A stretch of 64,000 bases of DNA, from the IMG/VR virus record IMGVR_UViG_2721755721_000001; one strand, written 5' to 3'. Shown here piece by piece: positions 1 to 17,302 of this stretch (its first letter is position 1; every line of letters starts with the position of its first letter). The notes beneath the pieces were generated by a model that did no database searches, had not been told where the DNA came from, and saw nothing but the letters and a program-made list of their open reading frames with translations. Source of the DNA: a virus (Duplodnaviria > Heunggongvirae > Uroviricota > Caudoviricetes). Position numbers and translations under genes: made by a program.

Positions 1-384
1 TTATGCGCGTGGATATACTTTCCGGCTAATTCTGCAGCTTTCTGCGGCAAAAGTGCATTTTCGCTTTCCTGAGCCGCCAGCAGCTCATCAAAATCCTCAA
101 GCGTTTCTCGTCCCAGCGCAATTTCCGTGCGCAGTTTTTTCATTTCCTTTGAGACCACGCCCTGACTTTCACGAAACAGCGTGCGCCACTCCTCATTCAG
201 TGTGTTCGTCGTGGCTTCCATTTCAGCGCGACGCTGGCGGATTGTCGCAATATTATCCGCTGCCGCTTTCTGCTGACGACGTGCTTCAAGCCATGCGTTT
301 CTGGCTGTGTTCATGGTTTCCAGTGCCCGCTGCGTTACAGCCGGAAAAGTGGAAAGGTTGTTATTTACTGCGGTATTGTTCATG
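1..384 (-). CDS. hypothetical coiled-coil protein (127 aa) downstream of primase and ori
   Basis: Not in ORF track (window edge). ATG at 382-384 (minus) preceded by AGGAG; stop at 1-3; translation MNNTAVNNNLSTFPAVTQRALE... Confidence 0.5.
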
Positions 385-559
385 ACTTCTCCTGTCGGGT
401 TGGTTCGTTACGTCAATTGTGTCGTGGCTGACACAAGCACACTATCGGTGCTCAGTGTGTGGTGGCTGGCACAACGGGCGCTTGCGGTTATTCAGACGTG
501 GCTATGAAAGCCAGCCAGATAAAAATGCCCTCTGTTTCAGTCTGCTTTATGTCCCTGAT

Positions 560-755
560 GCGGTGGAACAGGTGAAACATGTGTTACAGCTTTGTTTTAT
601 AAGGCATTTATATACACTGCACCGGTGGAACATCGCGGGTAACAAGGTGAAACAGCGGATTGGCTGGCGTTACATCTGTTCCACCTCACTATTTCAGAAG
701 GTGGAACAGGTTCAGCCCTGTAAAATACGGTTGTTCCACCTGTTTCACCTGTTAC
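560..755. repeat. Iteron cluster, about 8 copies of GGTG(G/A)AACA in both orientations; putative satellite replication origin
   Basis: Repeated ggtggaaca / ggtgaaaca and inverse tgttccacc / tgtttcacc in the 400-bp gap just downstream of the primase gene; P4 ori/crr lie at the equivalent position and carry short repeats bound by alpha. Confidence 0.6.
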
Positions 756-783
756 CCTTAATAAATAAGACTCACGCAAAGCC

Positions 784-3456
784 TTAACCCGGCACCTCGC
801 TGTTGAAGACATAGAGCCTGCGGGGATTCATCTCTGGCGGGCGAATGGTTGTCTGGAGTTTGCCATCAGTGGAGGGCAGCAGGTATCCACGATCTGCGCA
901 CAGACGCGCCACCTTGCGCGGGTCAAATCCCCTGCAGATTTCTTTCCAGCCGGACGGCATGACATAGAACGTAGTGACAGCTTCCGTGCCCTGCGCGGTA
1001 CTGCCTTTCTCCACCCTTCGCCAGCCCACCATATTGCCGGGGCGGTTGCGCTCGTCATACCAGTCTGCAAAGCGGCTGTACTGATTCGCGGTAAAGAAAC
1101 TGCGAACCTGCTCCAGTGCGGCGATATCTTCCTGATTGGCGGTGTGCCCGCGATCTTTCAGCCATGCGTTCAGGCAGACGCGGGTTGCCCGCAGTGCTTC
1201 ACCCTCAGGCCAGCCGGTGATACCCAGACGGGTTGCCAGTTCACCTGCCATCGCCACCAGTGCAAAGCGGTTCACAGCCCGGCCCACCTGATTGCCTGCA
1301 TCTTTCGGAGTCAGGGCGGCAGCATATTCCTTCATCAGCGATTTTGCCTGTGCCGTTAGTCCGTTAAGATCAGCGGTCAGTGCTTTCAGCCACTCCCGGA
1401 ACGGCGAACCGTAGTAGCAGGACGTGGCCCATTCAAGATGCTCTGCCAGAGCCTTGCCGCTGTCGAAGCCGTGCAGCTCCTCAAAAACGCCAAACTTCCC
1501 GGAATCGCTGGGGATCTGGATCATCCTGACTTCCATCCCGGCAAAAGTACGCTCACCGGCCTTTGCCGCATGTTCGGTCAGAGACAATTCGCCAGTTGAA
1601 AAGAACAACAGGCGCCACTGCTTACGGGTACGCAGCTCACCGTCCGTACCGGCACGGCCCTTGCCCTGACCGTTTGCCAGCATGTAGGCGATATTGCCTG
1701 CCTCGCGTCCGTCAACTTCCCGGATCTCATCAAGCATCATGGCGGCATCGTTGCGGCGGCTGGCGCATCCCTCCAGTGCGTTGCCGGTGGCCCGCCATGT
1801 CTGCCAGTAGTCAGGCCCGCCGCAGACGGAGGTTGCTGCTTTCATGGTGGTGGTCTTACCGTCTGTCGATTCCCCTTTGAGGTGGTAGCCGCCGCCGTCC
1901 ATACCAACCAGCCGTAACAGTGGTGCAGCAAAGGCCAGGCTGACAGCAAATGCCACGCGGGAGTTGCCGGTACAGTAGCGGGATACATGCTCCCGCCATT
2001 CCTCTGTTGTGCCCGACACGCGGAAATCACGCCCCTGCACGGAAGTGGTCTGGAGAATGACACCCTCTGCACCTTCACCGCTGACCTCATCCTGCAGGAC
2101 GTAAACCTGACCATGCCAGCCAGTACGACTGACGCAGGTCACGCGGCGTTCCGGTTTACACAGTGAGATATATTCCATCAGGCGTGCGCGTGCCTCACCG
2201 GTGGTGCTGATATAAGACAGCCCGTTAACCAGCAGTACCCGGCGCAGTTCCTCACCACTGCCGCTCAGCATTTCCATCGGCATCGCCCAGCGGCGACACT
2301 CACCCCACGTATCTTCCCATTCCAGCAGTCGTCCGAAGTTACCGCCATCGGCATCGCAGGTGATTGCCGTCACGCGCAGCGGGCTGCATATTTTGACGTT
2401 CTGGATCTCCGTCTCACCGTTGCGCTGTACCTGCTTTTCATACCAGAGATATTCCTGGGTAAGACGGAACCCGTGCGGCAGTTGCGTGCGGCTTTCCCCG
2501 CAGAGTACCAGACCGTTGCGAAAGGCTTCACGGGCACGGGTAATACCGTGCTCCCGATGAAAGTCATTCCAGTCAGCCTTAATCTCTTCTGGTGGCAGCG
2601 TCATCCAGCCGCCAACAGCTTTTGCCGCCCGTTCAGCAAAGGCTCTGCCGGGATTCTCACCCCCGTCCTGAAAATCGTTATCACCGGCGATGATAATTTT
2701 TACCTCAGGCCAGCGTGCCCGCAGCGACTGCGCCACATTGGGCAGGTTGCCCGCAGATATGGCAGCCACTACGCATCCGGCAGTGAGCTGGCTTACCGTC
2801 AGCGCCGTAGCGTAACCTTCGGTAATCACCACCTGTATCGGTGGTTCAGACGGTAACGGGCTGAGCGACACAAACGCGCCTTTCATCGTGCTGCCGGGCA
2901 GTATGCTTTTTTCACCCGTCGGGGCGATAAGCTGTGCACCGGTCACGGCTCCGGTGTTGGTCGTGAGTGGTAACAGCAGGGAACCGGCAGGAAAATCCTT
3001 ACCGCTGATATGCTGTACGCTTCCGGTCAGAGAGGCCGGGTATCCGGCGAACCCTTTTCCTGTCAGATAGGCGCTTTCTCCCGTGTGGCTCTCTTTCATC
3101 AGCGCCGCCACGGTAAGACCCATGTCGCGTTTAGGGGCTTTTTGTCTGGCAGGCTTAACAGGCAGTTCCTGCATATCCGGCACATTAAGCACCTGCGCCA
3201 CCTCCTGCGCAGCCTTTCTGACGTTGTAACCGGTTACGAGCTTAACCAGATCCAGACCGTCACCATTGCCACACTGGCTGCAGATCCACGTCCCGCGCCC
3301 GTCAAGGTCATCAAGGCGAAAACGATCCTTGCCCCCACATTTCGGGCAGGGACCGTGCCTGCCGTTTTCAGGTACATCAATACGCAGCATCTGCAGAATA
3401 ACGGGCCATTTCCCCCGTGCGGCGGCTGAAACCTGCGTAACCGTCTGTATTGTCAT
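784..3456 (-). CDS. P4 alpha-like DNA primase-helicase (890 aa)
   Basis: N-terminal zinc finger CPKCGGKDRFR...CSQCG, TOPRIM-like ITEGYATALTV/IIIAGDND, Walker A GESTDGKTT in C-terminal helicase part. Confidence 0.85.
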   Translation of the reverse strand: MTIQTVTQVSAAARGKWPVILQMLRIDVPENGRHGPCPKCGGKDRFRLDDLDGRGTWICSQCGNGDGLDLVKLVTGYNVRKAAQEVAQVLNVPDMQELPVKPARQKAPKRDMGLTVAALMKESHTGESAYLTGKGFAGYPASLTGSVQHISGKDFPAGSLLLPLTTNTGAVTGAQLIAPTGEKSILPGSTMKGAFVSLSPLPSEPPIQVVITEGYATALTVSQLTAGCVVAAISAGNLPNVAQSLRARWPEVKIIIAGDNDFQDGGENPGRAFAERAAKAVGGWMTLPPEEIKADWNDFHREHGITRAREAFRNGLVLCGESRTQLPHGFRLTQEYLWYEKQVQRNGETEIQNVKICSPLRVTAITCDADGGNFGRLLEWEDTWGECRRWAMPMEMLSGSGEELRRVLLVNGLSYISTTGEARARLMEYISLCKPERRVTCVSRTGWHGQVYVLQDEVSGEGAEGVILQTTSVQGRDFRVSGTTEEWREHVSRYCTGNSRVAFAVSLAFAAPLLRLVGMDGGGYHLKGESTDGKTTTMKAATSVCGGPDYWQTWRATGNALEGCASRRNDAAMMLDEIREVDGREAGNIAYMLANGQGKGRAGTDGELRTRKQWRLLFFSTGELSLTEHAAKAGERTFAGMEVRMIQIPSDSGKFGVFEELHGFDSGKALAEHLEWATSCYYGSPFREWLKALTADLNGLTAQAKSLMKEYAAALTPKDAGNQVGRAVNRFALVAMAGELATRLGITGWPEGEALRATRVCLNAWLKDRGHTANQEDIAALEQVRSFFTANQYSRFADWYDERNRPGNMVGWRRVEKGSTAQGTEAVTTFYVMPSGWKEICRGFDPRKVARLCADRGYLLPSTDGKLQTTIRPPEMNPRRLYVFNSEVPG

Positions 3457-3836
3457 ACTTCCCCCTCATACAACGTCACACCGGTACTGCAGAAGTCATC
3501 AAATGCCGCCGGAAGCGTGCGGTACATCTCCGCCATCACTTCACAGCCGCGCGCGGTCAGTACCGGCGGCGCGGTCAGCAGTGACGGCTCCAGCATGTCA
3601 GTCAGCAGTGCCAGCGCGGCAGCGGCGCCCTGCACTTCGCCGTACTCGTTAATCAGTACGCACTCGATATGCAGCGCAATGGCCATTTCAATACGCTCCA
3701 CCGTCAGGCTGTGCGGACCATACTGATCACTGCCAGTTTCGTTCAGCATTTTCTGCCGCCATGCTGAAGCAATAGCCCGCCGGTAAAGCGCGGTGGTCAT
3801 TTCTACCGGGAAAATGGAAACCTGCGGCTGGTTCAT
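3453..3836 (-). CDS. hypothetical protein (127 aa), satellite early operon
   Basis: ORF overlaps the primase start by 4 bp (translational coupling). Confidence 0.5.
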   Translation of the reverse strand: MNQPQVSIFPVEMTTALYRRAIASAWRQKMLNETGSDQYGPHSLTVERIEMAIALHIECVLINEYGEVQGAAAALALLTDMLEPSLLTAPPVLTARGCEVMAEMYRTLPAAFDDFCSTGVTLYEGEV

Positions 3837-4117
3837 CTGGCACCTCCTTCAATCAGTGCGCAGCTGTGTGCAATATCCGTCAAATCTGCCAGCAGGTACT
3901 CCATCAGCGCGGCGACACCAGGCGCACAGCCTGCGTCCAGTGCTCCGGCCTGAGACGGGTATTCAGAAAAGAGAAGCTGGAGCATGTCGCAGGCATTTCT
4001 TGCGCGGGTCAGCTTTCCGAAACTGTCCTCTGACAACCCATAGGCAAAAGCACCGGTATTGTGTTTTTCAGGCAAAGTGTGGCCCTGAGCACCGTTGTGC
4101 CCGTTTGAAATATTCAT
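3833..4117 (-). CDS. hypothetical protein (94 aa)
   Basis: ORF overlaps downstream gene by 4 bp, same operon. Confidence 0.45.
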   Translation of the reverse strand: MNISNGHNGAQGHTLPEKHNTGAFAYGLSEDSFGKLTRARNACDMLQLLFSEYPSQAGALDAGCAPGVAALMEYLLADLTDIAHSCALIEGGAR

Positions 4118-4148
4118 CGTGGATTACTCCGTTTTCAGCGGTATTTTG

Positions 4149-4538
4149 TCAGAGAAACTTTGAATAGTGACCGTCGTCAGGCTCAGCAGAACGCCGTATG
4201 CTACGCTCCCGCCAGCGGATAAATAGCACAGACGGATGCAGTGTCAGCGGGCCGGAACCACTACCGCCAGCAGGAGCTGGTGCAGGCTTCAAGAGCGGTA
4301 CATCAAACAGGCGCGTATACCGCTGTTCAAACCATGCCAGAGGGCAGGAAGAAAGCTTGTTGTCGCTGTCATGACGTATCAGCACTTCACAGCTGAATTC
4401 AGGATTAACCAGCGCCACAGAGGGCGAGGCTTCTATTAATCGGATAATCGTGACCGTCCAGCCACGTTCATGCTGCCAGCGTTCGCCGGGGTGCGGATAA
4501 TTACGCATGTTCACCTCCGCAGGGAATGCGCCCGGCAA
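4149..4538 (-). CDS. hypothetical protein (about 120-129 aa, start uncertain)
   Basis: ORF in operon orientation; overlaps the Icd-like gene. Confidence 0.4.
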   Translation of the reverse strand: MPGAFPAEVNMRNYPHPGERWQHERGWTVTIIRLIEASPSVALVNPEFSCEVLIRHDSDNKLSSCPLAWFEQRYTRLFDVPLLKPAPAPAGGSGSGPLTLHPSVLFIRWRERSIRRSAEPDDGHYSKFL

Positions 4539-4677
4539 AGCTCAGTACATAGTCCGGGGCAAGTCTGCGCCGCGCTGATCGTTCGTTATCTGCGGTGATC
4601 CTTAACATCACAGGACGGGCATTGCGTTGACTGCGGTTGATCGCCGCAAATAACCAGGTACACTTCTGTTTAGCCAT
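4501..4677 (-). CDS. Icd-like cell-division-inhibitor family small protein
   Basis: MAKQKCTWLFAAINRSQRNARPVMLRITADNERSARRRLAPDY... resembles P4-family Icd-like proteins; start placed at the internal MAKQK. Confidence 0.55.
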   Translation of the reverse strand: MAKQKCTWLFAAINRSQRNARPVMLRITADNERSARRRLAPDYVLSFAGRIPCGGEHA

Positions 4678-4793
4678 CTTCGTTACCTCATATAACGTGC
4701 TGGTCAGACGCCTCGGTGCTGCTGCAAACACTCCGGGGCGTTGCTATTTTGTTTTTCTGTGTGTAATGTGTCATTACACATAAATACATTACA

Positions 4794-4988
4794 ATGGGTG
4801 TAATTGACGTGTCAACACACAAAAATGAAAGACGTGGGAATCCGCCATTCCAGTTCCGACTTGACCCTGAACTGCGTGAACTGATGGAACAAGCACAACA
4901 GCAGGATGGCGATGAATCGCTAGCGGCTTGGATCAAGCGCATTCTACGCAAAGAGTTACAAAGCCGAGGTTTAGAACCAAAGAATTGA
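4794..4988 (+). CDS. small hypothetical protein (64 aa), divergent from the early operon
   Basis: ORF only; basic C-terminus. Confidence 0.3.
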   Translation: MGVIDVSTHKNERRGNPPFQFRLDPELRELMEQAQQQDGDESLAAWIKRILRKELQSRGLEPKN

Positions 4989-5037
4989 TTAATACGTTGG
5001 GGAGGCTTTTTTCTCCCCAGCTTTGTTAATATTGTCA

Positions 5038-5253
5038 TTACACTACTTCCTCCAATCCTGCTGATTGAGCTTTAACCCACTGCCTAATTTCTTGTGCATC
5101 GTAAACAGATACCCGTTTTGAAATGCGTATAGATTTGGGAAATTCAGGATTGTTCTTTTCCCAGCGCCAGAGAGTAACCGTACTTATTTGCAAAAAGTCA
5201 GCAGTAGCTCGTGGGCGGGCATGTCCAGTGATAGGATAAGTTTTTAATGTCAT
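5038..5253 (-). CDS. alpA: AlpA-family phage regulatory protein (HTH)
   Basis: MTLKTYPITGHARPRATADFLQISTVTLWRWEKNNPEFPKSIRISKRVSVYDAQEIRQWV - typical AlpA/Vis-type HTH. Confidence 0.8.
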   Translation of the reverse strand: MTLKTYPITGHARPRATADFLQISTVTLWRWEKNNPEFPKSIRISKRVSVYDAQEIRQWVKAQSAGLEEVV

Positions 5254-5355
5254 GAAATTACCTGCCGTATTATGTAATGAACACGGCAGATACTATGGGG
5301 ATATCAAAATGCTGTGAAGGTAGTGTAATCAACTCTACCTGTAGATTGTTTCAGT

Positions 5356-6237
5356 CTACCCCTTTTGTTTTAATCCCGCATGATTAACCGCTAATCGTAA
5401 TTTTCTTAAGATTTCTTGTTCATTAGTGATAAATATTGGAGGTAGCTCTCCTAAATGTTTAATTATGGCGTTAGTCCACTTTTCAGGACTTATCTCTTTT
5501 CTTTCACCACGACATTCGCTTGGGTATTTTGCTAATATATATATGGCTGCATTTAATAACCCCTCCCTATTTTTTGCATGATGCTCAGCAGTGTTATTTA
5601 ATCGCTTGGGGATTTTAGGTTCAGATGAAATTCTTTTCGTAAGTAAACTTGGCATAGGAATTCCAGTTTTTACTGATTTCCATATTAACTCTAAATCTCT
5701 TCGCATGATAAGAAGATCTTCAAATGGAATCTTAATTACCTTATTTCCTTCATATGAGGCCGTTGCCATCAAAACATTATCTCGTATTTTTACCGGTTTA
5801 AGCCTGAATTCATAATCTGGATCTATAGCTAATCCATTTTTTATGTCACTTATCATATCATCGGCGTACCAAATACCACAGGCAAATCCTATAATTTGAA
5901 GCCCATTTTCAAAATGTTCAAAGGAATCATCTTTAAGGTCATACCATATTGTTGAAAATTCCATCTCTAGTGATTGATTAGTTAATACGGGATGAATTAA
6001 GTCAATTTCCATTTTCTGATTTTTATTGAGGAAATTAACATTAAATCTAACTGCAAGTCCATCCGCCTTGAATGCGATATTAAAAGCGCCTATTTCGTAT
6101 AGATGTAATAAATCATCAATCTCGCATTCTAATAGTCTTGAAGCGCGTTCAAATGAACAATATTCTAATGGTGGTATTTTTTTGTCAATCCATAGATTTC
6201 CTAAGAATATAGTTTCATTCTCTGTTGAATGCTGCAT
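5356..6237 (-). CDS. hypothetical AT-rich cargo protein (293 aa) between integrase and alpA
   Basis: Long ORF with AGAGG Shine-Dalgarno; markedly AT-rich versus flanks; no motif recognised. Confidence 0.65.
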   Translation of the reverse strand: MQHSTENETIFLGNLWIDKKIPPLEYCSFERASRLLECEIDDLLHLYEIGAFNIAFKADGLAVRFNVNFLNKNQKMEIDLIHPVLTNQSLEMEFSTIWYDLKDDSFEHFENGLQIIGFACGIWYADDMISDIKNGLAIDPDYEFRLKPVKIRDNVLMATASYEGNKVIKIPFEDLLIMRRDLELIWKSVKTGIPMPSLLTKRISSEPKIPKRLNNTAEHHAKNREGLLNAAIYILAKYPSECRGERKEISPEKWTNAIIKHLGELPPIFITNEQEILRKLRLAVNHAGLKQKG

Positions 6238-6267
6238 TATGACCTCTGTTTTAAATTATAAGAGTAT

Positions 6268-7554
6268 TTAATTGATAATGTTAATACCTGATAAGTCATA
6301 AGGAGCATGGAATTCGTCCTTATTTAGTTCCAGATAATTAGACCACCATTGCATCATTCTGCGGCGTTCCTGCATGTGCTGCGCAAGATGCACATATGCT
6401 GCCCGCACTTCGTTTCTTTCTTGGTGACTCATCTGCCGTTCAACTGCATCGCGTGACCAGAGTCCTGATTCGGTCAGTGCAGAGCAGGCCATCGCCCTGA
6501 ACCCATGCAAGCAAACATCAGTTTGAGTGTCGTAACCCATCGTTCGCAGTGCTTTATTAACTGTGTTTTCGCTCATCGGTTTATATGGGTTGCTGTCACC
6601 GGGAAAAACCAGCAGATATTCACCACTGATTTTCCTTATATCCTCCAGTACCCCGATAGCCTGACTAGATAGCGGGACATAATGAGCAGCCCCCATCTTT
6701 GCACCCCGATCTGAGAATTTAACCCCTGCGATCTCTTCACGTTGTCCTGGTATCGTCCATAGCCCATTTTCAATGTCGATCTCCTCCCATCTGGCATGTC
6801 GTAGTTCGCTGGATCGCACAAAAGTGTGCAGGGAAAAGAGAACTGCTAGGCGAGTCAATGGTCTTCCCGTGTAACTTCTCGTTTTCGCTAACAGTTCAGG
6901 TAAACGTTCGAGAGGTAGTGCGGGGCGATGTCGTACTTTGGGGGCCGTAATTGCACCTTTTAGATCGTGGGCAGGGTTGTAATCGACAATTCCACGTTGC
7001 ACGGCATAACGGAAGATGCTCGTCATAGTGGTTTTTACACGGCTCGTTGTGGCACCAATTCCTTTCTCAGTCATCTCAACCAGCATCGGCATCAAGTCAC
7101 GGGTTTTGAGCGTATCGATAGGCTTTGAACCGATGGCAGGAAAGAGGTGGTTTTCCATTTCTCGGAGAATTTTTTTACGGGTGATCTCTTTCCACTCAGG
7201 ATGCCCCATCGTTCCACTATGCCACTCTCTGGCAACACTCTCGAACGTGGGGGAAATTGGGTCTTCCTTTTTGGGTTTCTTTGCTTCGCGAGGATCACGA
7301 CCATCGGCTAGTAGTTGCCTGGCTTCATCACGCCGTTTCCGCGCTGTTGCAAGTGAGACATCTGGGTAGACCCCTAATGCCAATGTCACTTGTTTTCCAT
7401 CAAAACGATAATTCATACGCCAGTATTTTCCACCAGTCTTTCGTACCAGTAGATACAAACTCCCTCCATCGGTAAGTTTGTAATCATTGGTCTTCGGCTT
7501 GGCGTTTTCTATCTGTTTGGGGGAAAGCACATTAATGGCCATATCTGTACTCAT
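6268..7554 (-). CDS. int: P4-type tyrosine integrase (start uncertain, ORF extends to 7602)
   Basis: N-terminus LSPKQIENAKPKTNDYKLTDGGSLYLLVRKTGGKYWRMNYR typical of P4-family integrases; C-terminal catalytic region with HGFR...Y. Confidence 0.85.
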   Translation of the reverse strand: MSTDMAINVLSPKQIENAKPKTNDYKLTDGGSLYLLVRKTGGKYWRMNYRFDGKQVTLALGVYPDVSLATARKRRDEARQLLADGRDPREAKKPKKEDPISPTFESVAREWHSGTMGHPEWKEITRKKILREMENHLFPAIGSKPIDTLKTRDLMPMLVEMTEKGIGATTSRVKTTMTSIFRYAVQRGIVDYNPAHDLKGAITAPKVRHRPALPLERLPELLAKTRSYTGRPLTRLAVLFSLHTFVRSSELRHARWEEIDIENGLWTIPGQREEIAGVKFSDRGAKMGAAHYVPLSSQAIGVLEDIRKISGEYLLVFPGDSNPYKPMSENTVNKALRTMGYDTQTDVCLHGFRAMACSALTESGLWSRDAVERQMSHQERNEVRAAYVHLAQHMQERRRMMQWWSNYLELNKDEFHAPYDLSGINIIN

Positions 7555-7814
7555 TTTGGTAAATTGATGGTATCTGCATATCGAACTGGGGAATACCATC
7601 ACTTATACCATCACGAGGTTGTAATGTCATGAAATTAACTGAAATGAAAATCAGGCCGATTCGGTGATAACTTACTGTTTTTTTAAGTGGTTATGTAATG
7701 AAGTGAAATGTAGAGAAAGGTCTTTAAAGTGTCCCCTGCAGACATCTACTTGAGGCAGCAGGGGATTGATTGGAATGGTGTTTTTTAGGTGTGAGAAATA
7801 TTTTACCCGCTATT

Positions 7815-8015
7815 TTACCCATTGGCGCGGCTTAAGAGCTTATTTTTGAATTCACAATGGTCACGATATAACCATCTTGCTCGACCGTGGATAACTTTGG
7901 CTTTTGGCAGGTCGCCGGACTTAATCCGGTCGTAGATGAAGGTTTTACCAAAGCCAGTATCGGCCATGATGAATTTCAAATCAACCAGTGAATCAGGTTG
8001 TAGTTCGTGTTGCAT
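7815..8015 (-). CDS. xis: excisionase / AlpA-like HTH DNA-binding protein (66 aa)
   Basis: Small basic HTH protein directly upstream of the integrase, GGAGA Shine-Dalgarno. Confidence 0.6.
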   Translation of the reverse strand: MQHELQPDSLVDLKFIMADTGFGKTFIYDRIKSGDLPKAKVIHGRARWLYRDHCEFKNKLLSRANG

Positions 8016-8057
8016 GAGTGCTATCTCCGAATAGGGAATCGAACCTGCAAATCAGGC

Positions 8058-8090
8058 AAGAAAAAACCGCCATCAGGCGGCTTGGTGTTC
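8058..8090 (-). terminator. rho-independent terminator (minus strand)
   Basis: Minus-strand GCCGCCTGATGGCGG hairpin followed by a T-run. Confidence 0.5.
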
Positions 8091-8146
8091 TTTCAGTTCT
8101 TCAATTCGAATATTGGTTACATTGTTTTCATATATGAATAAATAAA

Positions 8147-8359
8147 TTAGCTTTTTTCGTTGCCTTCGCGTTCTTTATTAATTTTGACAAAATCGTTTTT
8201 ACCACGCTCTCCAAATGCGTCTTTAGAGTCGTTGTATCCGCAATCGCAGCACACATAATCATCAGACCATCCACGCATTGTTTTTTCTTTTGCAATATTT
8301 CCAGAACCGCATTTTGGACAAGACATATCACTACCTCCAAAGCATGAGAGAGATGACAA
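8147..8359 (-). CDS. zinc-ribbon small protein (70 aa)
   Basis: CPKCGSG...CCDCG paired Cys motifs. Confidence 0.5.
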   Translation of the reverse strand: MSSLSCFGGSDMSCPKCGSGNIAKEKTMRGWSDDYVCCDCGYNDSKDAFGERGKNDFVKINKEREGNEKS

Positions 8360-11027: not shown

Positions 11028-11188
11028 ACAGCCCCTCGTTTATTATTTATCTCCTCAGCCAGCCGCTGGGCTTTCAGTGGATTTTGGATAACAGAAAGGT
11101 CGGGAAATACCCAGCCTCGCTTTGTAACGGAGTAGACGAAAGTGATCGCACCTACCCGGATATTATCGTGAGGATGCTTCATCGCCAT
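11000..11188 (-). CDS. lambda orf60a-like protein
   Basis: [29 protein letters not shown]..., immediately downstream of exo. Confidence 0.5.
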
Positions 11189-11859
11189 TGCTCCCCAAAT
11201 ACAAAACCAATTTCAGCCAGTGCCTCGTCCATTTTTTCGATGAACTCCGGCACCATCTCGTCAAAACCCGCCATGTACTTTTCATCCCGCTCAACCACGA
11301 CATAATGCAGTCCTTCACGCTTCATACGCGGGTCATAGTTGGCAAAGTACCAGGCATCTTTTCGCGTCACCCACATGCTGTACTGCACCTGGGCCATGTA
11401 AGCTGACTTTATGGCCTCGAAACCACCGAGCCGGAACTTCATGAAATCCCGGGAGGTAAACGGGCATTTCAGTTCAAGGCCGTTGCCGTCACTGCATAAA
11501 CCATCTGGAGAGCAGGCGGTACGCATACTTTCGTCGCGATAGATGATCGGTGATTCAGTAACATTCACGCCGGAAGTGAACTCAAACAGGGCTCTGGCGT
11601 CGTTCTCGTACTGTTTTCCCCAGGCCAGCGCTTTAGCGTTAACTTCCGGAGCCACACCGGTGCAAACCTCAGCAAGCAGGGTGTGGAAGTAGGACATTTT
11701 CATGTCAGGCCACTTTTTTCCGGAGCGGGGTTTTGCTATTACGTTATGAACTTCTGAAGCTGTGATGACGCCGAGCCGTAATTTGTGCCACGCATCATCC
11801 CCCTGTTCGACAGCTCTCACGTCGATCCCGGTACGCTGCAGGATAATGTCCGGTGTCAT
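11179..11859 (-). CDS. exo: lambda exonuclease (Red alpha)
   Basis: 226 aa, [40 protein letters not shown]... near-identical to lambda Exo. Confidence 0.95.
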
Positions 11860-12641
11860 GCTGCCACCTTCTGCTCAGTGGCTTTCTGTTTCAGGAATCC
11901 AAGAGCTTTCACTGCTTCGGCCTGTGTCAGTTCTGACGATGCGCGAATGTCGCGGCGAAATATCTGGGAACAGAGCGGCAATAAGTCGTCATCCCATGTT
12001 TTATCCAGGGCGATTAGCAGAGTGTTAATCTCCTGCATGGTTTCATCGTTAACCGGAGTGATGTCGCGTTCCGGCTGGCGTTCTGCAGTGTATGCAGTAT
12101 TTTCGACAATGCGCTCGGCTTCATCCTTGTCATAGATACCAGCAAATCCGAAGGCCAGACGGGCACACTGAATCATGGCTTTATGCCGTAACATCCGTTT
12201 AGGATGCGACTGCCACGGCCCCGTGATTTCTCTGCCTTCGCGAGTTTTGAATGGTTCGCGGCGGCATTCATCCATCCATTCGGTAACGCAGATCGGATGA
12301 TTACGGTCCTTGCGGTAAATCCGGCATGTACAGGATTCATTGTCCTGCTCAAAGTCCATGCCATCAAACTGCTGGTTTTCATTGATGATGCGGGACCAGC
12401 CATCAACGCCCACCACCGGAACGATGCCGTTCTGCTTATCAGGGAAGGCGTAAATTTCTTTCGTCCACGGATTAAGGCCGTACTGGTTGGCGACGATCAA
12501 CAATGCGATGAACTGCGCATCGCTGGCATCGCCTTTAAATGCCGTCTGGCGAAGAGTGGCGATCAGTTCCTGTGGGTCGACAGAATCCATGCCGACACGT
12601 TCAGCCAGCTTCCCTGCCAGCGTTGCGAGTGCTGTACTCAT
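11856..12641 (-). CDS. bet: lambda Bet (Red beta) single-strand annealing protein
   Basis: 261 aa, near-identical to lambda Bet. Confidence 0.95.
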
Positions 12642-13367: not shown

Positions 13368-13736
13368 TCAGGCGGCCTTGATAGTCATATCATCTGAATC
13401 AAATATTCCTGATGTATCGATATCGGTAATTCTTATTCCTTCGCTACCATCCATTGGAGGCCATCCTTCCTGACCATTTCCATCATTCCAGTCGAACTCA
13501 CACACAACACCATATGCATTTAAGTCGCTTGAAATTGCTATAAGCAGAGCATGTTGCGCCAGCATGATTAATACAGCATTTAATACAGAGCCGTGTTTAT
13601 TGAGTCGGTATTCAGAGTCTGACCAGAAATTATTAATCTGGTGAAGTTTTTCCTCTGTCATTACGTCATGGTCGATTTCAATTTCTATTGATGCTTTCCA
13701 GTCGTAATCAATGATGTATTTTTTGATGTTTGACAT
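13368..13736 (-). CDS. ea10: lambda Ea10
   Basis: 122 aa, MSNIKKYIIDYDWKASIEIEIDHDV... Confidence 0.8.
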   Translation of the reverse strand: MSNIKKYIIDYDWKASIEIEIDHDVMTEEKLHQINNFWSDSEYRLNKHGSVLNAVLIMLAQHALLIAISSDLNAYGVVCEFDWNDGNGQEGWPPMDGSEGIRITDIDTSGIFDSDDMTIKAA

Positions 13737-13916
13737 CTGTTCATATCCTCATAGATAAAAAATCGCCCTCACACTGGAGGGCAAAGAAGATTTCCAATAA
13801 TCAGAACAAGTCGGCTCCTGTTTAGTTACGAGCGACATTGCTCCGTGTATTCACTCGTTGGAATGAATACACAGTGCTGTGTTTATTCTGTTGTTTATGC
13901 CAAAAATAAAGGCCGA

Positions 13917-14540
13917 CTATGCGGCCTCGGAAGGAAGTCCAATCATCTTATTCAAATCTTCTACCCGTAAAGCAGGAAGTGCTGTACTTGCTTTATCTGC
14001 TTCTTTTGGTAGCAATTCTTTGCTTTCAGGCCAAACTTCAATAAGTCGCTTAACTGTTGTTACTGAGTTCAAAGCAGCCCATACATTTGATTCGATATCC
14101 TTTTTCCTGGCTTCAAGTTTTTGTTGCAATGCGCAGATTTCATCAAACCTTTTTGTTATTTCGTGTTCTGCGTTAAACATGCATTTATCTCTGTTAGGAG
14201 TAGGGAGCAATATATCTTCGCCGTTACCGTCTTTTCCATATGAATACCAGCCAACCCTTCTGCCAGATACAGTCAGATAAATTGAAGTAGAACGAACATC
14301 GTATGAGTAAAATGAACATCCCATCTTTTCAAGTTCTTCACTTATAGCCATTAATCTGGATGATAACTGATCCACTTCTTCAGTTTTCTTTTTACCGCCA
14401 AACGCAACAACTCTGGCGTCAAGTGCAAGCCGGTTCTTTAACTTTGTTACTTCTTCAAGTTCGGTGAAAACCCCGGACTTAATTAAAGCGTTACGAGCGA
14501 TATCCTCTTTCATTCTCGTAGTTAAGCGGATTGATGACAT
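13917..14540 (-). CDS. hypothetical protein (about 207 aa) in the ral/sieB slot between ea10 and N
   Basis: Start at MSSIRLTTRM with GAGAGG Shine-Dalgarno; no motif recognised. Confidence 0.55.
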   Translation of the reverse strand: MSSIRLTTRMKEDIARNALIKSGVFTELEEVTKLKNRLALDARVVAFGGKKKTEEVDQLSSRLMAISEELEKMGCSFYSYDVRSTSIYLTVSGRRVGWYSYGKDGNGEDILLPTPNRDKCMFNAEHEITKRFDEICALQQKLEARKKDIESNVWAALNSVTTVKRLIEVWPESKELLPKEADKASTALPALRVEDLNKMIGLPSEAA

Positions 14541-14601
14541 ATTAATTCCTCTCAAATAAGTGGTTTGCTGCCTGATTTCATTTTCTGGTGACCAACACAA
14601 G

Positions 14602-15488: not shown

Positions 15489-16514
15489 TTATGGGCGAGT
15501 GATGGTTGATGCGTTTCCGTTTTCTATTACACCTGCTCGTATCGTGTAGCTTCCCAAGATTTTTACTGTCCTGTTTTCTTTCATTGCATCAAACAGTATG
15601 GCGATCTCGTCTTTATCATCTATGAACGACGTGTCCACCGAAACAGGGAAACTGTCTTCACTAGATGGTTCGCGGCAGCTTAGGGTTATCTTTTCCGCAG
15701 TACGCTTGATTCCATCAATGACTAATTCAAGGTTTCTTTCTTCTTTTTTTGCTTTTTCGATAGGGTTCTTGATTAGTTCGTGGATTTCTTTGTTAGACAG
15801 TTCAACTGTGCTTGCGCCTGATATGACAATTTTGTCAGCATCAGACGCGCCTTTTAATACCCCTGTATACGCTTTTGCAGTATGCTCTTGAATCCCTTCG
15901 GCGCGCTCTACTGCATCTATGCCCGCTTTAGCTCTAATCGCCTCAAGCATTCCGTCCCTTAATATCGTCATGCGCTCGTTTTCTGATTTAATCTTGGCTT
16001 CTTCGAGCTTTGTTTCTTCTTGCTTGACTTCTACTTCGGCTTTTTTCTCTAAGTATGATGTACCAACCCATGCACCGCCTATAACGGTGACAGCAAACAA
16101 GAAGCATAATGTTTTTTGGCTAGGACTCATACCGTGTGTTACCTTCTCAAAGGCTTTACCGAATGCTTCAAAAAGCTTTGTTAATGCAGCAAGTATATCA
16201 GTACAACCTTCATTAATGGTAAAGATGATCTCTGCTTCCTCTTTATCTTTACCAGTTAACCTTTGAAGGTTGTCAGTTTTATATTTTATTAGTGTGAAAA
16301 CTTTATAAATTTCAGTCTGAAATTCGCATAAACCCTGAGCTAGAGGAGATGGAAGCGTTCCGTTGTAGCGAGAAGGATCACCATAAATCTTAAAATTCAC
16401 ATTATTGAAGAGGTCTAACTTGATCCTGTCGATAGTGATCTCTTCGCCACCATCTAACCTTGCAAACAAAGATTCAATGTCGTCCAGACTTGAAACATTA
16501 ATAATATCTTTCAT
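15489..16514 (-). CDS. unassigned membrane-anchored protein (341 aa) in the rexAB position downstream of cI
   Basis: GAAGGTG Shine-Dalgarno; AT-rich; one predicted TM helix (LCFLFAVTVIGGAWVGTSYL) then K/E-rich coiled coil; no motif recognised. Confidence 0.7.
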   Translation of the reverse strand: MKDIINVSSLDDIESLFARLDGGEEITIDRIKLDLFNNVNFKIYGDPSRYNGTLPSPLAQGLCEFQTEIYKVFTLIKYKTDNLQRLTGKDKEEAEIIFTINEGCTDILAALTKLFEAFGKAFEKVTHGMSPSQKTLCFLFAVTVIGGAWVGTSYLEKKAEVEVKQEETKLEEAKIKSENERMTILRDGMLEAIRAKAGIDAVERAEGIQEHTAKAYTGVLKGASDADKIVISGASTVELSNKEIHELIKNPIEKAKKEERNLELVIDGIKRTAEKITLSCREPSSEDSFPVSVDTSFIDDKDEIAILFDAMKENRTVKILGSYTIRAGVIENGNASTITRP

Positions 16515-16594
16515 TACAACACCTTCGGCACAACCTTGCTAGTTAAATTAGTGATTATAAAAATTGGATACTTACCAGCTATGTGACGATGAAG

Positions 16595-17302
16595 TCACGA
16601 ACTTTTCAGCCACTCCCTTGCCTCGATGTCATCCAGATGGCGAGATTGCTTCAGAATACCAGCTACATACTCCACCTTTGCTACTTGATGATAAGGCAAC
16701 GTTATAGGCCTGTGATCCTGGTTAATGCTTGTAAATTGGTATTCTCCATCTCTGTCATAGCCAAGAACCTTAATCATGTTGTGTCCTTCAACGGTTCTGA
16801 CAAACACCTCATCACCCGGGAATACTTTGGTGTTAGGCTCAATGAGTACATATTCTCCTGATTTTATTCTGGGCCACATGCTGTCTCCTTTCACACGAAG
16901 ACCAAAGGCATCTGGATCATCGCTATAAATTTTGAGCCACCCATCGCGCTCTTCGGTCATCTCGATGGCACCATCAACACCAAGAATTGCCTCACCAACC
17001 ACGCGCACTAACCCTTTTTTTAATTTGCCAACAAATGAAAGAGTATCTTCATCATTCGCTCCATTTAACGAAGTGCCGTGCTGAAGCCAAACAACATCAA
17101 CGTTTAGAAATTTCGCAAGCGCATTCATTTTTTCCTGACGCGGTAAAGACTCAGCATTAAACCATTTGCTAACGCCTTTGGACGAAAGAGAAAGGGCACG
17201 GGCTATAGCCATTCCCCTACCATGTTCATCAAGACCAGCTTCTTTACAGGCTTGCGCTAGCCGCTGGGCGAATTCTTTGCGCACTTTTTCATTCTGAACC
17301 AT
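16595..17302 (-). CDS. cI: CI-type prophage repressor (HTH + S24 LexA-like peptidase)
   Basis: N-terminal HTH, C-terminal GDSMWP Ser/Lys dyad region; divergent from cro. Confidence 0.9.
   Translation of the reverse strand: MVQNEKVRKEFAQRLAQACKEAGLDEHGRGMAIARALSLSSKGVSKWFNAESLPRQEKMNALAKFLNVDVVWLQHGTSLNGANDEDTLSFVGKLKKGLVRVVGEAILGVDGAIEMTEERDGWLKIYSDDPDAFGLRVKGDSMWPRIKSGEYVLIEPNTKVFPGDEVFVRTVEGHNMIKVLGYDRDGEYQFTSINQDHRPITLPYHQVAKVEYVAGILKQSRHLDDIEAREWLKSS

What the first reader, a model, noticed from the sequence alone, without database searches (positions are those of the whole stretch)
5356..6237. AT-rich 293-aa cargo gene between the satellite integrase and alpA
The module int - cargo - alpA - Icd-like - primase - ori is a P4/CP4-57-like architecture, and integrase-proximal slots in such elements are known hot spots for anti-phage cargo. 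The 293-aa ORF is much more AT-rich than the flanking integrase and alpA, has a good Shine-Dalgarno, and has no motif I can assign. Candidate single-gene defence or accessory system.
Basis: partly seen in the sequence, partly recalled or inferred. Interest (0 to 1): 0.75.

Follow-up and report, generated by a model that had tools for sequence, protein, structure and literature searches.

The report
Hypervariable orphan gene guarding alpA switch
The AT-rich 293-aa gene is real, but it is not swappable cargo: it belongs to an uncharacterised, fast-evolving protein family that always sits between the integrase and the alpA master switch of enterobacterial phage satellites, and it always comes with a conserved RNA hairpin in front of alpA, so it is probably part of how these satellites control their activation.

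Summary
There is a 293-aa ORF at 5356-6237, on the minus strand, with GC 0.33 against 0.48 for int and 0.42 for alpA. It has a GAGG Shine-Dalgarno and a near-consensus promoter of its own, and no Pfam, NCBIfam or PADLOC hit. The element is a genuine P4-like satellite integrated at argW.

The "cargo" reading is only partly right. The protein ("X") belongs to a large unannotated family (565 cluster representatives), named so far only from Enterobacterales. In 16 of 16 contexts examined it lies int->X->alpA on one strand, across four integration sites and several satellite backbones. It is absent from 50,697 phage genomes.

X is under purifying selection (dN/dS about 0.2) yet hypervariable: 26-27% identity where int is 76-94% and primase 98%. 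Every member examined is AT-rich.

The model (pLDDT 71) shows an N-terminal MerR/Xis-like winged helix, a variable beta-rich middle and a near-invariant C-terminal helical module. No enzymatic or membrane motif was recognised.

A covarying hairpin covering the alpA ribosome-binding region occurs in 16 of 16 X-bearing elements and in 0 of 5 X-less ones.

Best reading (confidence about 0.4): a sensor-regulator, expressed while the element is integrated, that is coupled to the alpA switch. Main rival (about 0.25): an anti-phage or exclusion protein. Function is untested.

The parts
5356..6237 (-). X: 293-aa protein-coding gene (stop codon 5356-5358), member of an uncharacterised family locked between int and alpA
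   Evidence: ORF. Homologues. dN/dS 0.11-0.20. RefSeq WP_001164861.1 'hypothetical protein'.
6255..6284 (-). Promoter-like site for X (TTAACA-18 nt-TATAAT, 11 of 12), inside the 3' end of int and the 30-nt int-X spacer
   Evidence: Consensus scan and sequence. The same TATAAT is kept in the Salmonella copy L022. Function not shown.
6243..6246 (-). Shine-Dalgarno GAGG, 5 nt before the ATG of X
   Evidence: Read directly from the sequence.
6028..6168 (-). Codons about 24-70: N-terminal winged helix-turn-helix-like domain, the best-conserved segment across the whole family (consensus PLEYCxLxRAAxLLxCExxDLxHxAxIGxIxLC)
5647..6027 (-). Codons about 71-197: variable, beta-rich middle region. Carries the family's few conserved motifs outside the termini (GLW at G121; DLxI(T) at I177) and most of the length variation
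   Evidence: Highest dN/dS of the three regions (0.16-0.31). Five 316-320 aa relatives (P0006, P0008, P0009, P0011, P0012) match the query by BLASTP only over the C-terminal ~25% (55-67% identity) although the profile alignment spans the full length.
5590..5646 (-). Codons about 198-216: low-confidence, probably disordered linker
   Evidence: AF2 pLDDT below 50 for residues 198-216.
5359..5589 (-). Codons about 217-293: near-invariant C-terminal helical module (AEHHAKNRE...YPSECRGERKEISPEKW...PP...ITNE..IL..LR.AVN)
   Evidence: 22 of the 35 invariant columns of A1 lie at residues 218-254 and 28 at residue 218 onward. dN/dS 0.07-0.09. The module recurs with other or shorter middles (P0027, P0032, P0037, P0040, P0047). 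No Pfam or PDB match.
5318..5359 (-). Two small stem-loops directly after the X stop codon. The second (5319-5339) is a GGTA-N13-TACC dyad that abuts the -35 of the alpA promoter-like site: weak terminator or operator
   Evidence: The dyad recurs in L022, L017, L015 and L002 but not in the other groups; background is 1 per 3,728 nt. Role unresolved.
5290..5318 (-). Promoter-like site for alpA (TTCACA-17 nt-TAGTAT, 9 of 12). Its -10 overlaps the first bases of the hairpin's 5' arm
   Evidence: A TAnnnT hexamer lies within -3 to +2 nt of the stem start in 8 of 15 loci. Inferred, not shown.
5259..5292 (-). alpA-leader hairpin: 13-bp stem, 8-nt loop, dG -17 kcal/mol. The 3' arm contains the alpA Shine-Dalgarno (AGGT) and ends 5 nt before the ATG
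   Evidence: Present in 16 of 16 X-bearing loci and 0 of 5 X-less alpA leaders. 7 of 8 core pairs show compensatory changes, 100% of cells paired, 0 of 500 shuffles reach the covariation score. G.U pairs are only valid on this strand. No Rfam match.
5038..5253 (-). alpA (71 aa), AlpA-family regulator, the gene immediately downstream of X
   Evidence: Pfam PF05930 at E 1.6e-7. Role as master activator of Gram-negative PICIs taken from PMC6092414 and PMC11773190.
6268..7542 (-). P4-type tyrosine integrase (424 aa from the RefSeq start; the longest ORF runs to 7602), the gene immediately upstream of X. Integrates at tRNA-Arg (argW)
   Evidence: Pfam Arm-DNA-bind_3, Phage_int_M and Phage_integrase. 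RefSeq start. The same int abuts tRNA-Arg in L016, L025 and L022.

Best explanation
X is a DNA-binding (possibly nucleic-acid-binding) sensor-regulator that belongs to the int-alpA control module of a subset of enterobacterial phage satellites (P4-like and PICI-like). It is not interchangeable cargo.

Proposed mechanism:
1. X is transcribed from its own strong promoter while the satellite is integrated and quiescent.
2. Its conserved N-terminal winged helix binds nucleic acid in the int-X-alpA region.
3. Its fast-evolving middle domain recognises a variable partner, most plausibly a helper-phage protein.
4. Its invariant C-terminal module contacts something conserved, such as self, Int, AlpA or host machinery.
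5. Because no strong terminator separates X from alpA, the alpA ribosome-binding region is locked in a hairpin on read-through RNA. AlpA, which triggers excision and replication, would be made only from transcripts that start at the alpA promoter inside the hairpin's 5' arm, or when the hairpin is opened.

Shown here: the gene is real and under purifying selection; position and orientation are strictly conserved; the gene is hypervariable, alleles are replaced and all members are AT-rich; the domain layout; and the covarying hairpin that co-occurs with X.

Inferred, not shown: DNA binding, the identity of the partner, which way X regulates alpA, and what the hairpin does.
For: Position lock: 16 of 16 contexts have P4-type int -> X -> AlpA/HTH_17 on one strand. 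These span att sites argW, yicC, der and a citrate-lyase-side site, and backbones with DUF927, D5_N/DUF5906 or Pox_D5 primases, with or without sid/psu.

Same family in the sister backbone: the EC1515 slot protein is a family member (hhalign probability 100%, E 5e-40) at 24-27% identity, while alpA is 88%, primase 98% and Icd identical.

The N-terminal wHTH-like segment is the best-conserved part of the family, is modelled confidently and resembles MerR-type winged helices weakly.

Variable middle with conserved ends: dN/dS is 0.25-0.31 in the middle against 0.07-0.09 in the C-terminal module in comparisons with the window gene, the pattern expected for a sensor facing a changing partner.

No nuclease, NTPase, TIR/SIR2 or transmembrane motif was recognised, and there is no Pfam, PADLOC or PDB match.

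Own promoter at 11 of 12 matches, and no consensus terminator on the minus strand before alpA.

Hairpin over the alpA ribosome-binding region in 16 of 16 X-bearing and 0 of 5 X-less elements, with compensatory changes. This ties X to the alpA switch.

The literature states that no repressor or sensor is known for Gram-negative PICIs and that the helper-encoded inducer of alpA was still being sought in 2018 (PMC6092414).
Against: No experiment supports the model.

The best-studied Gram-negative PICIs (EcCICFT073, EcCIMP1) have no X, yet their alpA is still induced by helpers (PMC6092414, PMC11773190). X is therefore not generally required for induction.

Three related elements (L002, L007, L010) already carry the P4-type C4/isrK immunity RNAs, so X is not needed there as the sole repressor.

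X reads in the same direction as alpA, unlike Stl-type repressors.

No operator motif is shared by all loci; the GGTA...TACC dyad occurs in only three independent lineages.

Two of 63 E. coli copies have X broken by IS1 and the element is still present.

AT-richness, allele swapping and expression from its own promoter fit an anti-phage moron equally well.

The hairpin statistics rest on related loci and on arms that I registered by hand.
Confidence: 0.4

Rival explanations
1. X is a single-gene anti-phage, exclusion or interference protein (a moron) carried by the satellite. It would be expressed from its own promoter in the integrated state, its variable middle domain would recognise an invading or helper phage component, and it would block that phage by binding rather than by enzymatic attack.
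For: The location is at the int-proximal 5' end of satellites, where PICI immune systems have been reported (PMC11364771; accessory genes between integrase and regulator in PMC10085698). X is strongly AT-rich compared with its flanks in every locus. It is hypervariable and alleles are replaced by recombination (dS 1.15 against 0.28 for the primase), as expected under an arms race. It has its own near-consensus promoter. It is dispensable for keeping the element, given the IS1 knock-outs. The int-alpA slot can hold unrelated genes or nothing in other elements: yfjH in CP4-57, a 76-aa ORF in STEC306, empty in EcCIMP1 and KY172.
Against: No PADLOC model matches. No enzymatic, TIR/SIR2, nuclease, NTPase or membrane motif was recognised. 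One homologous family monopolises the slot in 16 of 16 contexts, instead of the mix of unrelated systems that defines P2/P4 hotspots (PMC9122126, PMC13586616). The known P4 hotspot is int-psu, not int-alpA. Where a recognisable defence-type gene is seen in a related element (the TIR gene in W284) it sits after alpA, not in this slot. The co-inherited alpA-leader hairpin is not explained by a free-standing moron, except as insulation.
Confidence: 0.25
2. X is a helper-directed or host-directed accessory regulator. It would not control the satellite's own switch but would reprogramme the helper prophage or host genes (compare antirepressors, or PerC in EcCIMP1), with the middle domain tuned to the local helper or host.
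For: The layout is a wHTH-like N-terminus plus non-enzymatic domains. Satellites of this type carry several helper-manipulating regulators (AntA, Bro-N, Ash, PerC). EcCIMP1 regulators act on other elements (PMC11773190). X is absent from phage genomes.
Against: This does not explain the strict position next to alpA or the X-linked hairpin. No target is known. The idea is not distinguishable from the main explanation by sequence alone.
Confidence: 0.15
3. X is an accessory factor of the adjacent integrase: an architectural or directionality protein with an Xis-like winged helix that binds att arms and biases integration against excision.
For: X is immediately downstream of int and possibly co-transcribed with it (30-nt spacer). 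Its N-terminal domain has the same general fold class as Xis, TorI and AlpA excisionases.
Against: X diverges far faster than int and does not track it: int 94% against X 26% (L007 and L026), int 82% against X 34% (L002 and L010). AlpA plus Int suffice for excision in EcCICFT073 (PMC6092414). Closely related ints work without X, and elements with IS1-disrupted X remain integrated at argW. At 293 aa it is much larger than known directionality factors.
Confidence: 0.08

Closest known systems
SaPI Stl / Gram-positive PICI Rpr master repressors
   Same: Satellite-encoded and next to int. HTH at the N-terminus with a highly divergent remainder. The proposed logic is also the same: a variable domain senses a helper-phage protein and so releases the satellite cycle.
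   Different: No sequence or fold similarity was detected. X reads in the same direction as the regulator it precedes, whereas stl is divergent. Repression and helper binding are untested. Well-studied Gram-negative PICIs work without X.
MerR / Xis / AlpA (HTH_17) winged-helix DNA-binding domains
   Different: Below every family threshold (best HTH_17 E=0.16; hhalign probability 9%). There is no MerR-type coiled-coil dimerisation helix. About 230 further residues have no counterpart.
P2/P4 and PICI defence hotspots (Rousset et al. 2022, PMC9122126; PMC13586616; PMC11364771)
   Same: An AT-rich, rapidly exchanged gene with its own promoter in a fixed slot of a phage satellite, near int.
   Different: Hotspots hold many unrelated systems, whereas this slot holds one homologous family in all 16 contexts. 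The documented P4 hotspot is int-psu, with a minor one between the primase and an att site (PMC13586616), not int-alpA. No known defence model matches.
CP4-57 YfjH (E. coli K-12 b2623), the gene between intA and alpA
   Same: Same slot (between a P4-type int and alpA), similar size (318 aa) and uncharacterised.
   Different: Not homologous (BLASTP E 1.5; hhalign probability 0.3%). It is on the opposite strand, and the CP4-57 alpA leader has no hairpin.
Rfam RF02996 'int-alpA RNA' motif
   Same: A conserved structured RNA in the same int-alpA interval. In six related elements it lies in the int->X spacer and ends about 18 nt before the X start in L010, L012, L020 and L021.
   Different: Absent from the window (no Rfam match at E<=1), where the int-X spacer is only 30 nt. 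It is a different element from the alpA-leader hairpin described here, which lies downstream of X and is not in Rfam.
phrog_7144 (PHROGs v4, unknown function)
   Same: 28 of 84 family members match it, with best E 4.7e-78, so part of this family is already clustered there.
   Different: The window protein itself does not reach E 1e-3 against it. The PHROG carries no annotation, and no family member was found in 50,697 deposited phage genomes.

Membership tests
P4-like satellite (the element that carries X) | P4-type integrase next to a tRNA att site | tested here: met
   Pfam Arm-DNA-bind_3, Phage_int_M and Phage_integrase. The same int abuts tRNA-Arg in L016, L025 and L022.
P4-like satellite (the element that carries X) | alpha-type primase(-helicase) | tested here: met
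   890-aa protein with Zn_Ribbon_Prim, Toprim_3 and DUF927 at 784-3456.
P4-like satellite (the element that carries X) | sid / psu / delta helper-subversion genes | tested here: met
   Outside the window, but present in the 100%-identical genome copy L001 (sid-like, psu, ogr/delta) and in L022 and L023 (Psu, Psu, Ogr_Delta Pfam hits). The order alpha->sid->psu->delta on the same strand as int differs from canonical P4 (PMC8628076).
P4-like satellite (the element that carries X) | alpA/vis regulator and epsilon/ash | tested here: inconclusive
   alpA is present. No ash/epsilon was called in the window or in L001, and no C4/CI immunity RNA was found in 1-8200, unlike L002, L007 and L010.
Known anti-phage defence systems (PADLOC-DB 2.0) | Match to any defence-protein model | tested here: not met
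   0 families at E<=1 for X and for its small neighbours.
Known anti-phage defence systems (functional definition) | Protection against phage when expressed | not testable with these tools
   Requires phage challenge of strains with and without X.
MerR / HTH_17 / AlpA winged-helix family | Profile match above the curated threshold | tested here: not met
   No Pfam hit for X or for 84 relatives at E<=0.01. Best on isolated N-terminal domains is HTH_17 at E=0.16, 12.7 bits against a cut-off of 27.
MerR / HTH_17 / AlpA winged-helix family | Winged helix-turn-helix fold | tested here: inconclusive
Stl/Rpr-type satellite master repressor | Encoded next to int and divergent from the genes it represses | tested here: not met
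   X is next to int but reads the same way as alpA in all 16 contexts (for example).
Stl/Rpr-type satellite master repressor | Binds operators in the regulatory spacer and is inactivated by a helper-phage protein | not testable with these tools
   Only a partial candidate dyad (GGTA...TACC, 5319-5339) was seen, in three independent lineages.
CP4-57 YfjH family | Sequence homology to YfjH | tested here: not met
   BLASTP E=1.5; hhalign probability 0.3%.
X family as defined here (int-alpA-locked orphan family; overlaps phrog_7144) | Full-length profile homology, with the N-terminal PLEYC..RAA.LL.CE..DL.H motif, GLW, DLxI(T) and the C-terminal ERHA.NRE / EC..G...SPEKW module | tested here: met
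   The window protein seeded the profile. 565 representatives at E<=1e-3 and 176 at E<=1e-10. The motifs are present in the window protein.
X family as defined here (int-alpA-locked orphan family; overlaps phrog_7144) | Position int -> X -> alpA on one strand, low GC, and a hairpin over the alpA ribosome-binding region | tested here: met
   Window. Family: 16 of 16 contexts; GC 0.32-0.38 in the 9 genes measured; hairpin in 16 of 16.
Rfam RF02996 int-alpA RNA | Covariance-model match in the int-alpA interval | tested here: not met
   No match at E<=1 in window 1-8200. Matches of 47.6-66 bits in L010, L012, L018, L019, L020 and L021.

The most novel reading that the evidence does not exclude
X is the missing helper-phage sensor of Gram-negative satellites, a functional analogue of SaPI Stl built on an unrelated fold. 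Its hypervariable middle domain would bind a helper-phage protein, and through its winged helix and the co-inherited alpA-leader hairpin it would gate production of the master activator AlpA. The X-hairpin-alpA unit would then be a previously unrecognised protein-plus-RNA switch module, and the many X alleles would define which helpers can induce which satellites.
Probability: 0.2. Interest if true: 0.85.

Novelty: new variant of a known kind. Interest (0 to 1): 0.6.

Why it matters
How Gram-negative satellites (PICIs and P4-like elements) sense their helper phage and switch on alpA is an acknowledged open question. [quoted passage not shown]

This work identifies a widespread but unannotated gene family, and a covarying RNA hairpin not in Rfam, that sit exactly at that switch and are inherited together. 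That turns the question into simple experiments: delete X, mutate the hairpin, and test binding.

If X instead proves to be an anti-phage protein, it would be a new non-enzymatic defence family with an unusually rich natural allele series. The three alleles tested here occur in about 2% of complete E. coli genomes, and a Klebsiella pneumoniae allele forms a cluster of 170 sequences.

Either way, the result warns against calling every AT-rich orphan near an integrase "cargo": here the position is conserved while the sequence is not.

Tried and rejected
1. CP4-57 yfjH as a homologue (a lead from memory): rejected. It is unrelated and on the opposite strand.
2. Pfam, NCBIfam, PADLOC and PHROGs on X: nothing usable. 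Pfam on 84 relatives and on isolated N- and C-terminal domains: nothing above noise.
3. PDB by sequence profile: only spurious EF-hand and LRR hits.
5. The search for related loci with the broad alignment A2 failed because it has no conserved stretch. With A1 the scan of one genome per species returned only 3 loci, so a systematic census was not possible. Context rests on 16 places examined individually.
6. The second and third indexed protein searches returned few new proteins. Every source name is an Enterobacterales taxon, but the 565 representatives carry no names, so the range is not proven.
7. MAFFT could not put the hairpin arms in register. I used real 8-nt arms joined by a fixed AAAA spacer, which biases pair counts towards pairing. 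The slid-partner control (29-41% paired) and the background of ORF starts (7.6% with stems of at least 8 bp) limit that concern but do not remove it.
8. The GGTA...TACC dyad as a universal X operator: rejected as universal, since it is present in only three independent lineages.
9. hhalign of the X N-terminus against AlpA/TorI: in register but only 9% probability.
10. The hairpin as an intrinsic terminator: unlikely, because most copies lack a U-tract.
11. Literature: the Weinberg 2017 supplement describing int-alpA RNA is not held, and the Cell 2022 paper on PICI immune systems is not held.
12. Plus-strand ORFs inside 5356-6237 (51, 74 and 81 aa): treated as spurious, because the conservation and dN/dS signal lie in the minus-strand frame.
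Full report
OBSERVATION. The ORF is real. It runs from an ATG at 6237 to a stop codon at 5356-5358 on the minus strand and encodes 293 aa. GC is 0.333 (GC3 0.245), against 0.476 for the integrase, 0.421 for alpA and 0.518 for the whole window. A GAGG Shine-Dalgarno lies 5 nt before the ATG. The consensus scan places a TTAACA-18-TATAAT site (11 of 12 matches) at 6284-6255 on the same strand. Pfam, NCBIfam and PADLOC give no hit, and PHROGs gives only E=0.11. RefSeq annotates the identical protein as WP_001164861.1, "hypothetical protein".

THE ELEMENT. On the minus strand the order is:
- P4-type integrase (6268-7542 from the RefSeq start)
- X
- alpA (5038-5253)
- a small plus-strand YlcI/YnfO/Arc-like gene (4794-4988)
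- an Icd-like gene and three small ORFs (phrog_30862, phrog_14861, DUF5375)
- an 890-aa Toprim/DUF927 primase (784-3456)

The window cuts the element after the primase. In a 100%-identical genome copy it continues with sid-like, psu and ogr/delta genes and two hypothetical genes (L001; also L022 and L023). So it is a genuine P4-like satellite, although all modules read in one direction, unlike canonical P4 (PMC8628076).

The same int abuts tRNA-Arg (argW) in other strains. In the window argW has been displaced by a lambdoid prophage whose torI-like excisionase lies at 7815-8015; ARAGORN finds no tRNA in the window.

X IS NOT AN ISOLATED ORPHAN. A first search found 14 clusters. A profile search of 1.84 billion representatives found 565 proteins at E<=1e-3 and 176 at E<=1e-10. 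Nearly all are 260-350 aa and matched over most of their length. None of 84 sampled members has a Pfam domain, and the profile finds no solved structure. Twenty-eight of the 84 fall in phrog_7144, which has no known function. Every source name is an Enterobacterales taxon: Escherichia, Salmonella, Klebsiella, Yersinia, Serratia, Pantoea, Morganella, Providencia, Xenorhabdus, Photorhabdus, Pluralibacter, Intestinirhabdus and Tatumella. No member occurs in 50,697 deposited phage genomes. Three alleles tested by DNA occur in 63, 41 and 10 of 5,426 complete E. coli genomes.

POSITION LOCK. Every context I could read shows a P4-type int, then X, then an AlpA/HTH_17 gene, all on one strand:
- E. coli, argW site: window, L001 and L015
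- Salmonella (L022) and two metagenomic or MAG copies (L017, L023) at argW
- E. coli, yicC site (L002)
- Yersinia (L012), Morganella (L010), Xenorhabdus (L020) and Photorhabdus (L021, with a decayed int), all at yicC
- Klebsiella michiganensis (L007) and K. pneumoniae (L026), at der
- Providencia, next to citrate-lyase genes (L028)
- Intestinirhabdus and Tatumella (L018, L019)
- a K. pneumoniae circular copy (L029)

. The backbones differ: DUF927, D5_N/DUF5906 or Pox_D5 primases, with sid/psu or with AntA/Bro-N/Ash.

The slot is not always filled by X. CP4-57 has the unrelated, opposite-strand yfjH. STEC306 has a 76-aa ORF. EcCIMP1 and KY172 have nothing. W284 has int abutting alpA, with a TIR-domain gene after alpA. 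EcCICFT073 has alpA as its second ORF (PMC6092414).

HYPERVARIABLE YET CONSTRAINED. Between the window and EC1515, both at argW, protein identities are int 76%, X 27%, AlpA 88%, the three small ORFs 87-91% and primase 98%; Icd is the same protein. The EC1515 protein is nonetheless a clear family member (hhalign probability 100%, E 5e-40). Between the two der-site Klebsiella elements the figures are int 94%, X 26%, AlpA 56%, orf143 82% and AntA 89%.

Against closer orthologues X is under purifying selection. dN/dS is 0.20 (Salmonella, 86% identity) and 0.11-0.17 for more distant pairs. In comparisons with the window gene it is lowest in the C-terminal module (0.08-0.09) and highest in the middle (0.24-0.31). 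In the window-L023 pair the synonymous divergence of X (1.15) is four times that of the primase (0.28), which indicates allele replacement by recombination rather than drift alone.

All nine family genes measured have GC 0.32-0.38 and GC3 0.23-0.35, in loci of 39-54% GC and next to int genes of 42-54% GC. Two of the 63 E. coli copies carry independent IS1 insertions in X, so X is dispensable for retaining the element.

ARCHITECTURE OF THE PROTEIN. The alignments show three regions:
1. A conserved N-terminal segment (consensus PLEYCxLxRAAxLLxCExxDLxHxAxIGxIxLC).
2. A middle of variable length with only GLW and DLxI(T) conserved.
3. A C-terminal module that is nearly invariant within the closer subfamily (AEHHAKNRE...YPxECRGERKEISPEKW...PPL.ITNE..IL..LR.AVN).

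Five 316-320 aa relatives (P0006, P0008, P0009, P0011, P0012) match the query by BLASTP only over the C-terminal ~25% (55-67% identity), although the profile alignment spans their full length. The module also occurs with other or shorter middles.

The AlphaFold2 model, built from a 29-sequence alignment, has mean pLDDT 70.9. It shows a strand-helix-turn-helix-hairpin unit at residues 26-69, two helices, a beta-rich domain (95-178), a helix, a disordered linker (198-216) and a four-helix C-terminal domain.

I therefore treat the winged helix as probable, not established. I recognised no nuclease, NTPase, TIR/SIR2 or membrane-spanning motif.

A HAIRPIN THAT TRAVELS WITH X. Comparing the X-alpA spacers showed that each ends in an inverted repeat directly before the alpA start codon. 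In the window it is 5259-5292 on the minus strand: a 13-bp stem, an 8-nt loop and dG -17 kcal/mol. The 3' arm contains the Shine-Dalgarno (AGGT) and ends 5 nt before the ATG.

Across 15 loci the stems are 8-14 bp, dG is -10.6 to -22.8 kcal/mol, and the 3' arm ends 0-6 nt before the ATG. The Shine-Dalgarno lies inside the arm or at the loop-arm junction. The arm sequences differ but remain complementary: TGCCGTGT/ACACGGCA, CCCGTAAC/GTTACGGG, CCCATAAC/GTTATGGG, CCCCTAAC/GTTAGGGG, TGCCTAGC/GCTAGGCA, CCCTGTAAC/GTTACAGGG and GTGTATGAC/GTCATACAC.

On a loop-trimmed alignment of the real 8-nt arms, 100% of 72 cells pair, 7 of 8 pairs show changes on both sides, and the covariation score is 0.98 against 0.38 for shuffles (0 of 500 reach it). 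Sliding the partner by 1-3 columns drops pairing to 29-41%. The G.U pairs (for example L023, CTGTCGTG/CATGGCAG) are valid only on the alpA-sense strand, which favours an RNA structure over a DNA palindrome.

Only 7.6% of 105 background ORF starts in the window have a comparable stem of at least 8 bp. The hairpin is present in 16 of 16 X-bearing elements (including L029) and in none of five X-less alpA leaders: EcCIMP1, CP4-57, W284, STEC306 and KY172, where the best stems are at most 7 bp and dG is -6.0 or weaker. Rfam has no match there.

Caveats: the loci are related, I registered the arms by hand, and the X-less set is small.

OTHER SIGNALS. Directly after the X stop codon are two small stem-loops (5318-5359). 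The second is a GGTA-N13-TACC dyad that abuts the -35 of a TTCACA-17-TAGTAT promoter-like site (5318-5290), whose -10 overlaps the start of the hairpin's 5' arm. A TAnnnT hexamer lies within -3 to +2 nt of the stem start in 8 of 15 loci. A transcript initiated there would lack part of the 5' arm. The scan finds no terminator on the minus strand between X and alpA. The dyad recurs in only three independent lineages, so it cannot be a universal operator.

In six related elements the Rfam family RF02996 ("int-alpA RNA") occupies the int-X spacer just upstream of X, ending about 18 nt before the X start in L010, L012, L020 and L021; it is absent from the window. Three related elements (L002, L007, L010) also carry the P4-type C4/isrK immunity RNAs; the window element shows none in 1-8200.

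INTERPRETATION. The facts fit a gene that belongs to the int-alpA control module better than they fit free cargo:
- One homologous family holds a fixed place and orientation across many backbones.
- Its best-conserved part is a probable nucleic-acid-binding domain.
- Its middle is variable between conserved ends.
- No effector chemistry was recognised.
- An RNA structure over the ribosome-binding region of the master activator is inherited with it.

My preferred model (confidence about 0.4) is a sensor-regulator expressed in the integrated state. Its variable domain would read a changing partner, most plausibly a helper-phage protein. The hairpin would keep alpA silent on read-through RNA from X. 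This would speak to an open question: PMC6092414 states that a global repressor in Gram-negative PICIs is unclear and that the helper-encoded inducer of alpA was still under study, and PMC11773190 confirms helper-specific alpA induction in another element.

Against the model: EcCICFT073 and EcCIMP1 are induced without X, some X-bearing elements already have C4 immunity RNAs, the winged helix is weakly supported, X is co-directional with alpA, and IS1 knock-outs persist.

It is supported by AT-richness, allele swapping, an independent promoter, and literature that places immune genes at the 5' end of PICIs (PMC11364771, PMC10085698). It is weakened by the absence of any defence-model match, by one family monopolising the slot, and by the fact that the documented P4 hotspot is int-psu (PMC9122126, PMC13586616, PMC8628076).

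Lesser rivals are a helper- or host-directed regulator (about 0.15) and an integrase accessory factor (about 0.08). The latter is disfavoured because X does not co-vary with int.

NOVELTY AND VERDICT. The family is known to databases only as "hypothetical protein" and, in part, as an unannotated PHROG. I found no paper that addresses it. Its architecture has no detectable relative, and the alpA-leader hairpin is not in Rfam. The kind of thing, a satellite-encoded regulatory or accessory protein, is known, so I rate it a new variant of a known kind.

There is an outside chance (about 0.2) that it is the missing helper sensor of Gram-negative satellites, working with an RNA gate. Interest is 0.6: no phenotype is known, but the anatomy is unusual, widespread and directly testable.

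Noticed in passing
window 5259-5292 (minus strand); also L002, L007, L010, L012, L015, L017-L023, L026, L028, L029: A covarying RNA hairpin covers the alpA ribosome-binding region. It is present in all 16 X-bearing elements and in none of 5 X-less alpA leaders, and it is not in Rfam. It may be a new cis-regulatory RNA.
   Followed up: yes
L010 4916-4983, L012 4913-4979, L020 4915-4983, L021 4917-4983, L018 3332-3397, L019 3328-3392: The Rfam 'int-alpA RNA' (RF02996, listed as a candidate sRNA) lies in the int->X spacer in these loci. In L010, L012, L020 and L021 it ends about 18 nt before the X start codon, so it may be a 5' leader of X or an int 3'-end structure rather than a free sRNA. It is absent from the window element.
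   Followed up: partly
window 1-8200, compared with L002 8006-8231, L007 7836-8076 and L010 7992-8220: The yicC- and der-type relatives L002, L007 and L010 carry the P4-type immunity RNAs (C4, isrK, c4-a1b1). The window's P4-like element shows none at E<=1, and no ash/epsilon gene was called. What keeps it quiescent is unknown.
   Followed up: partly
window 4794-4988 (+) and 4996-5021: A 64-aa YlcI/YnfO/Arc-like gene lies antisense between alpA and the Icd-like gene, followed by a strong hairpin plus T-run that could terminate transcription from both directions. Related copies occur on many E. coli chromosomes and plasmids.
   Followed up: no
window 7543-8015 and rightwards to at least 13000: Two elements are integrated in tandem at argW. 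The satellite's int promoter side abuts a lambdoid prophage that starts with a torI-like excisionase (7815-8015) and carries an exonuclease/RecT-like pair at 11179-12641. The tRNA itself is not in the window. Short direct repeats (ATACCATCAC twice at 7593-7614; TATTTTACCC twice at 7799-7820) lie at the junction.
   Followed up: partly
L024 (E. coli E41) 1057-2490 and L025 (E. coli CE0021a) 1057-2715: Independent IS1A and IS1B insertions split X in two of the 63 E. coli genomes that carry this allele. This may reflect IS1's preference for AT-rich DNA or selection against X.
   Followed up: partly
L029 (K. pneumoniae 'plasmid' NZ_CP033626.1, 22,859 bp): This record is an approximately 18-kb int->X->alpA->...->primase satellite assembled as a circle with a 4.6-kb terminal overlap (genes at 213-4559 repeat at 18417-22763). 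It is probably an excised, replicating satellite deposited as a plasmid. Two further 21-22 kb Klebsiella records also gave hits.
   Followed up: partly
L030 (E. coli W284) 2892-3767: In a related int-alpA element without X, a TIR-domain gene sits immediately after alpA. That suggests the true swappable cargo slot in these elements is downstream of alpA.
   Followed up: no
L001 4161-5730 (outside the window, beyond delta): Two hypothetical genes (234 and 282 aa) lie between ogr/delta and the far end of the satellite, which is the classical P4 int-psu/cos defence hotspot once the element is circular. The same pair is in the Salmonella copy L022 (16910-18479). They were not analysed.
   Followed up: no
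window 13400-14600 and 15489-16600: Further AT-rich stretches (GC 0.36-0.40) inside the lambdoid prophage hold minus-strand ORFs of 227 and 341 aa with no obvious function. They are possible prophage morons.
   Followed up: no
window 6268-7602: The longest int ORF (444 aa, GTG at 7602) is probably too long. RefSeq and the Salmonella orthologue start at MAINVLSPKQ, 424 aa, at window 7542.
   Followed up: yes
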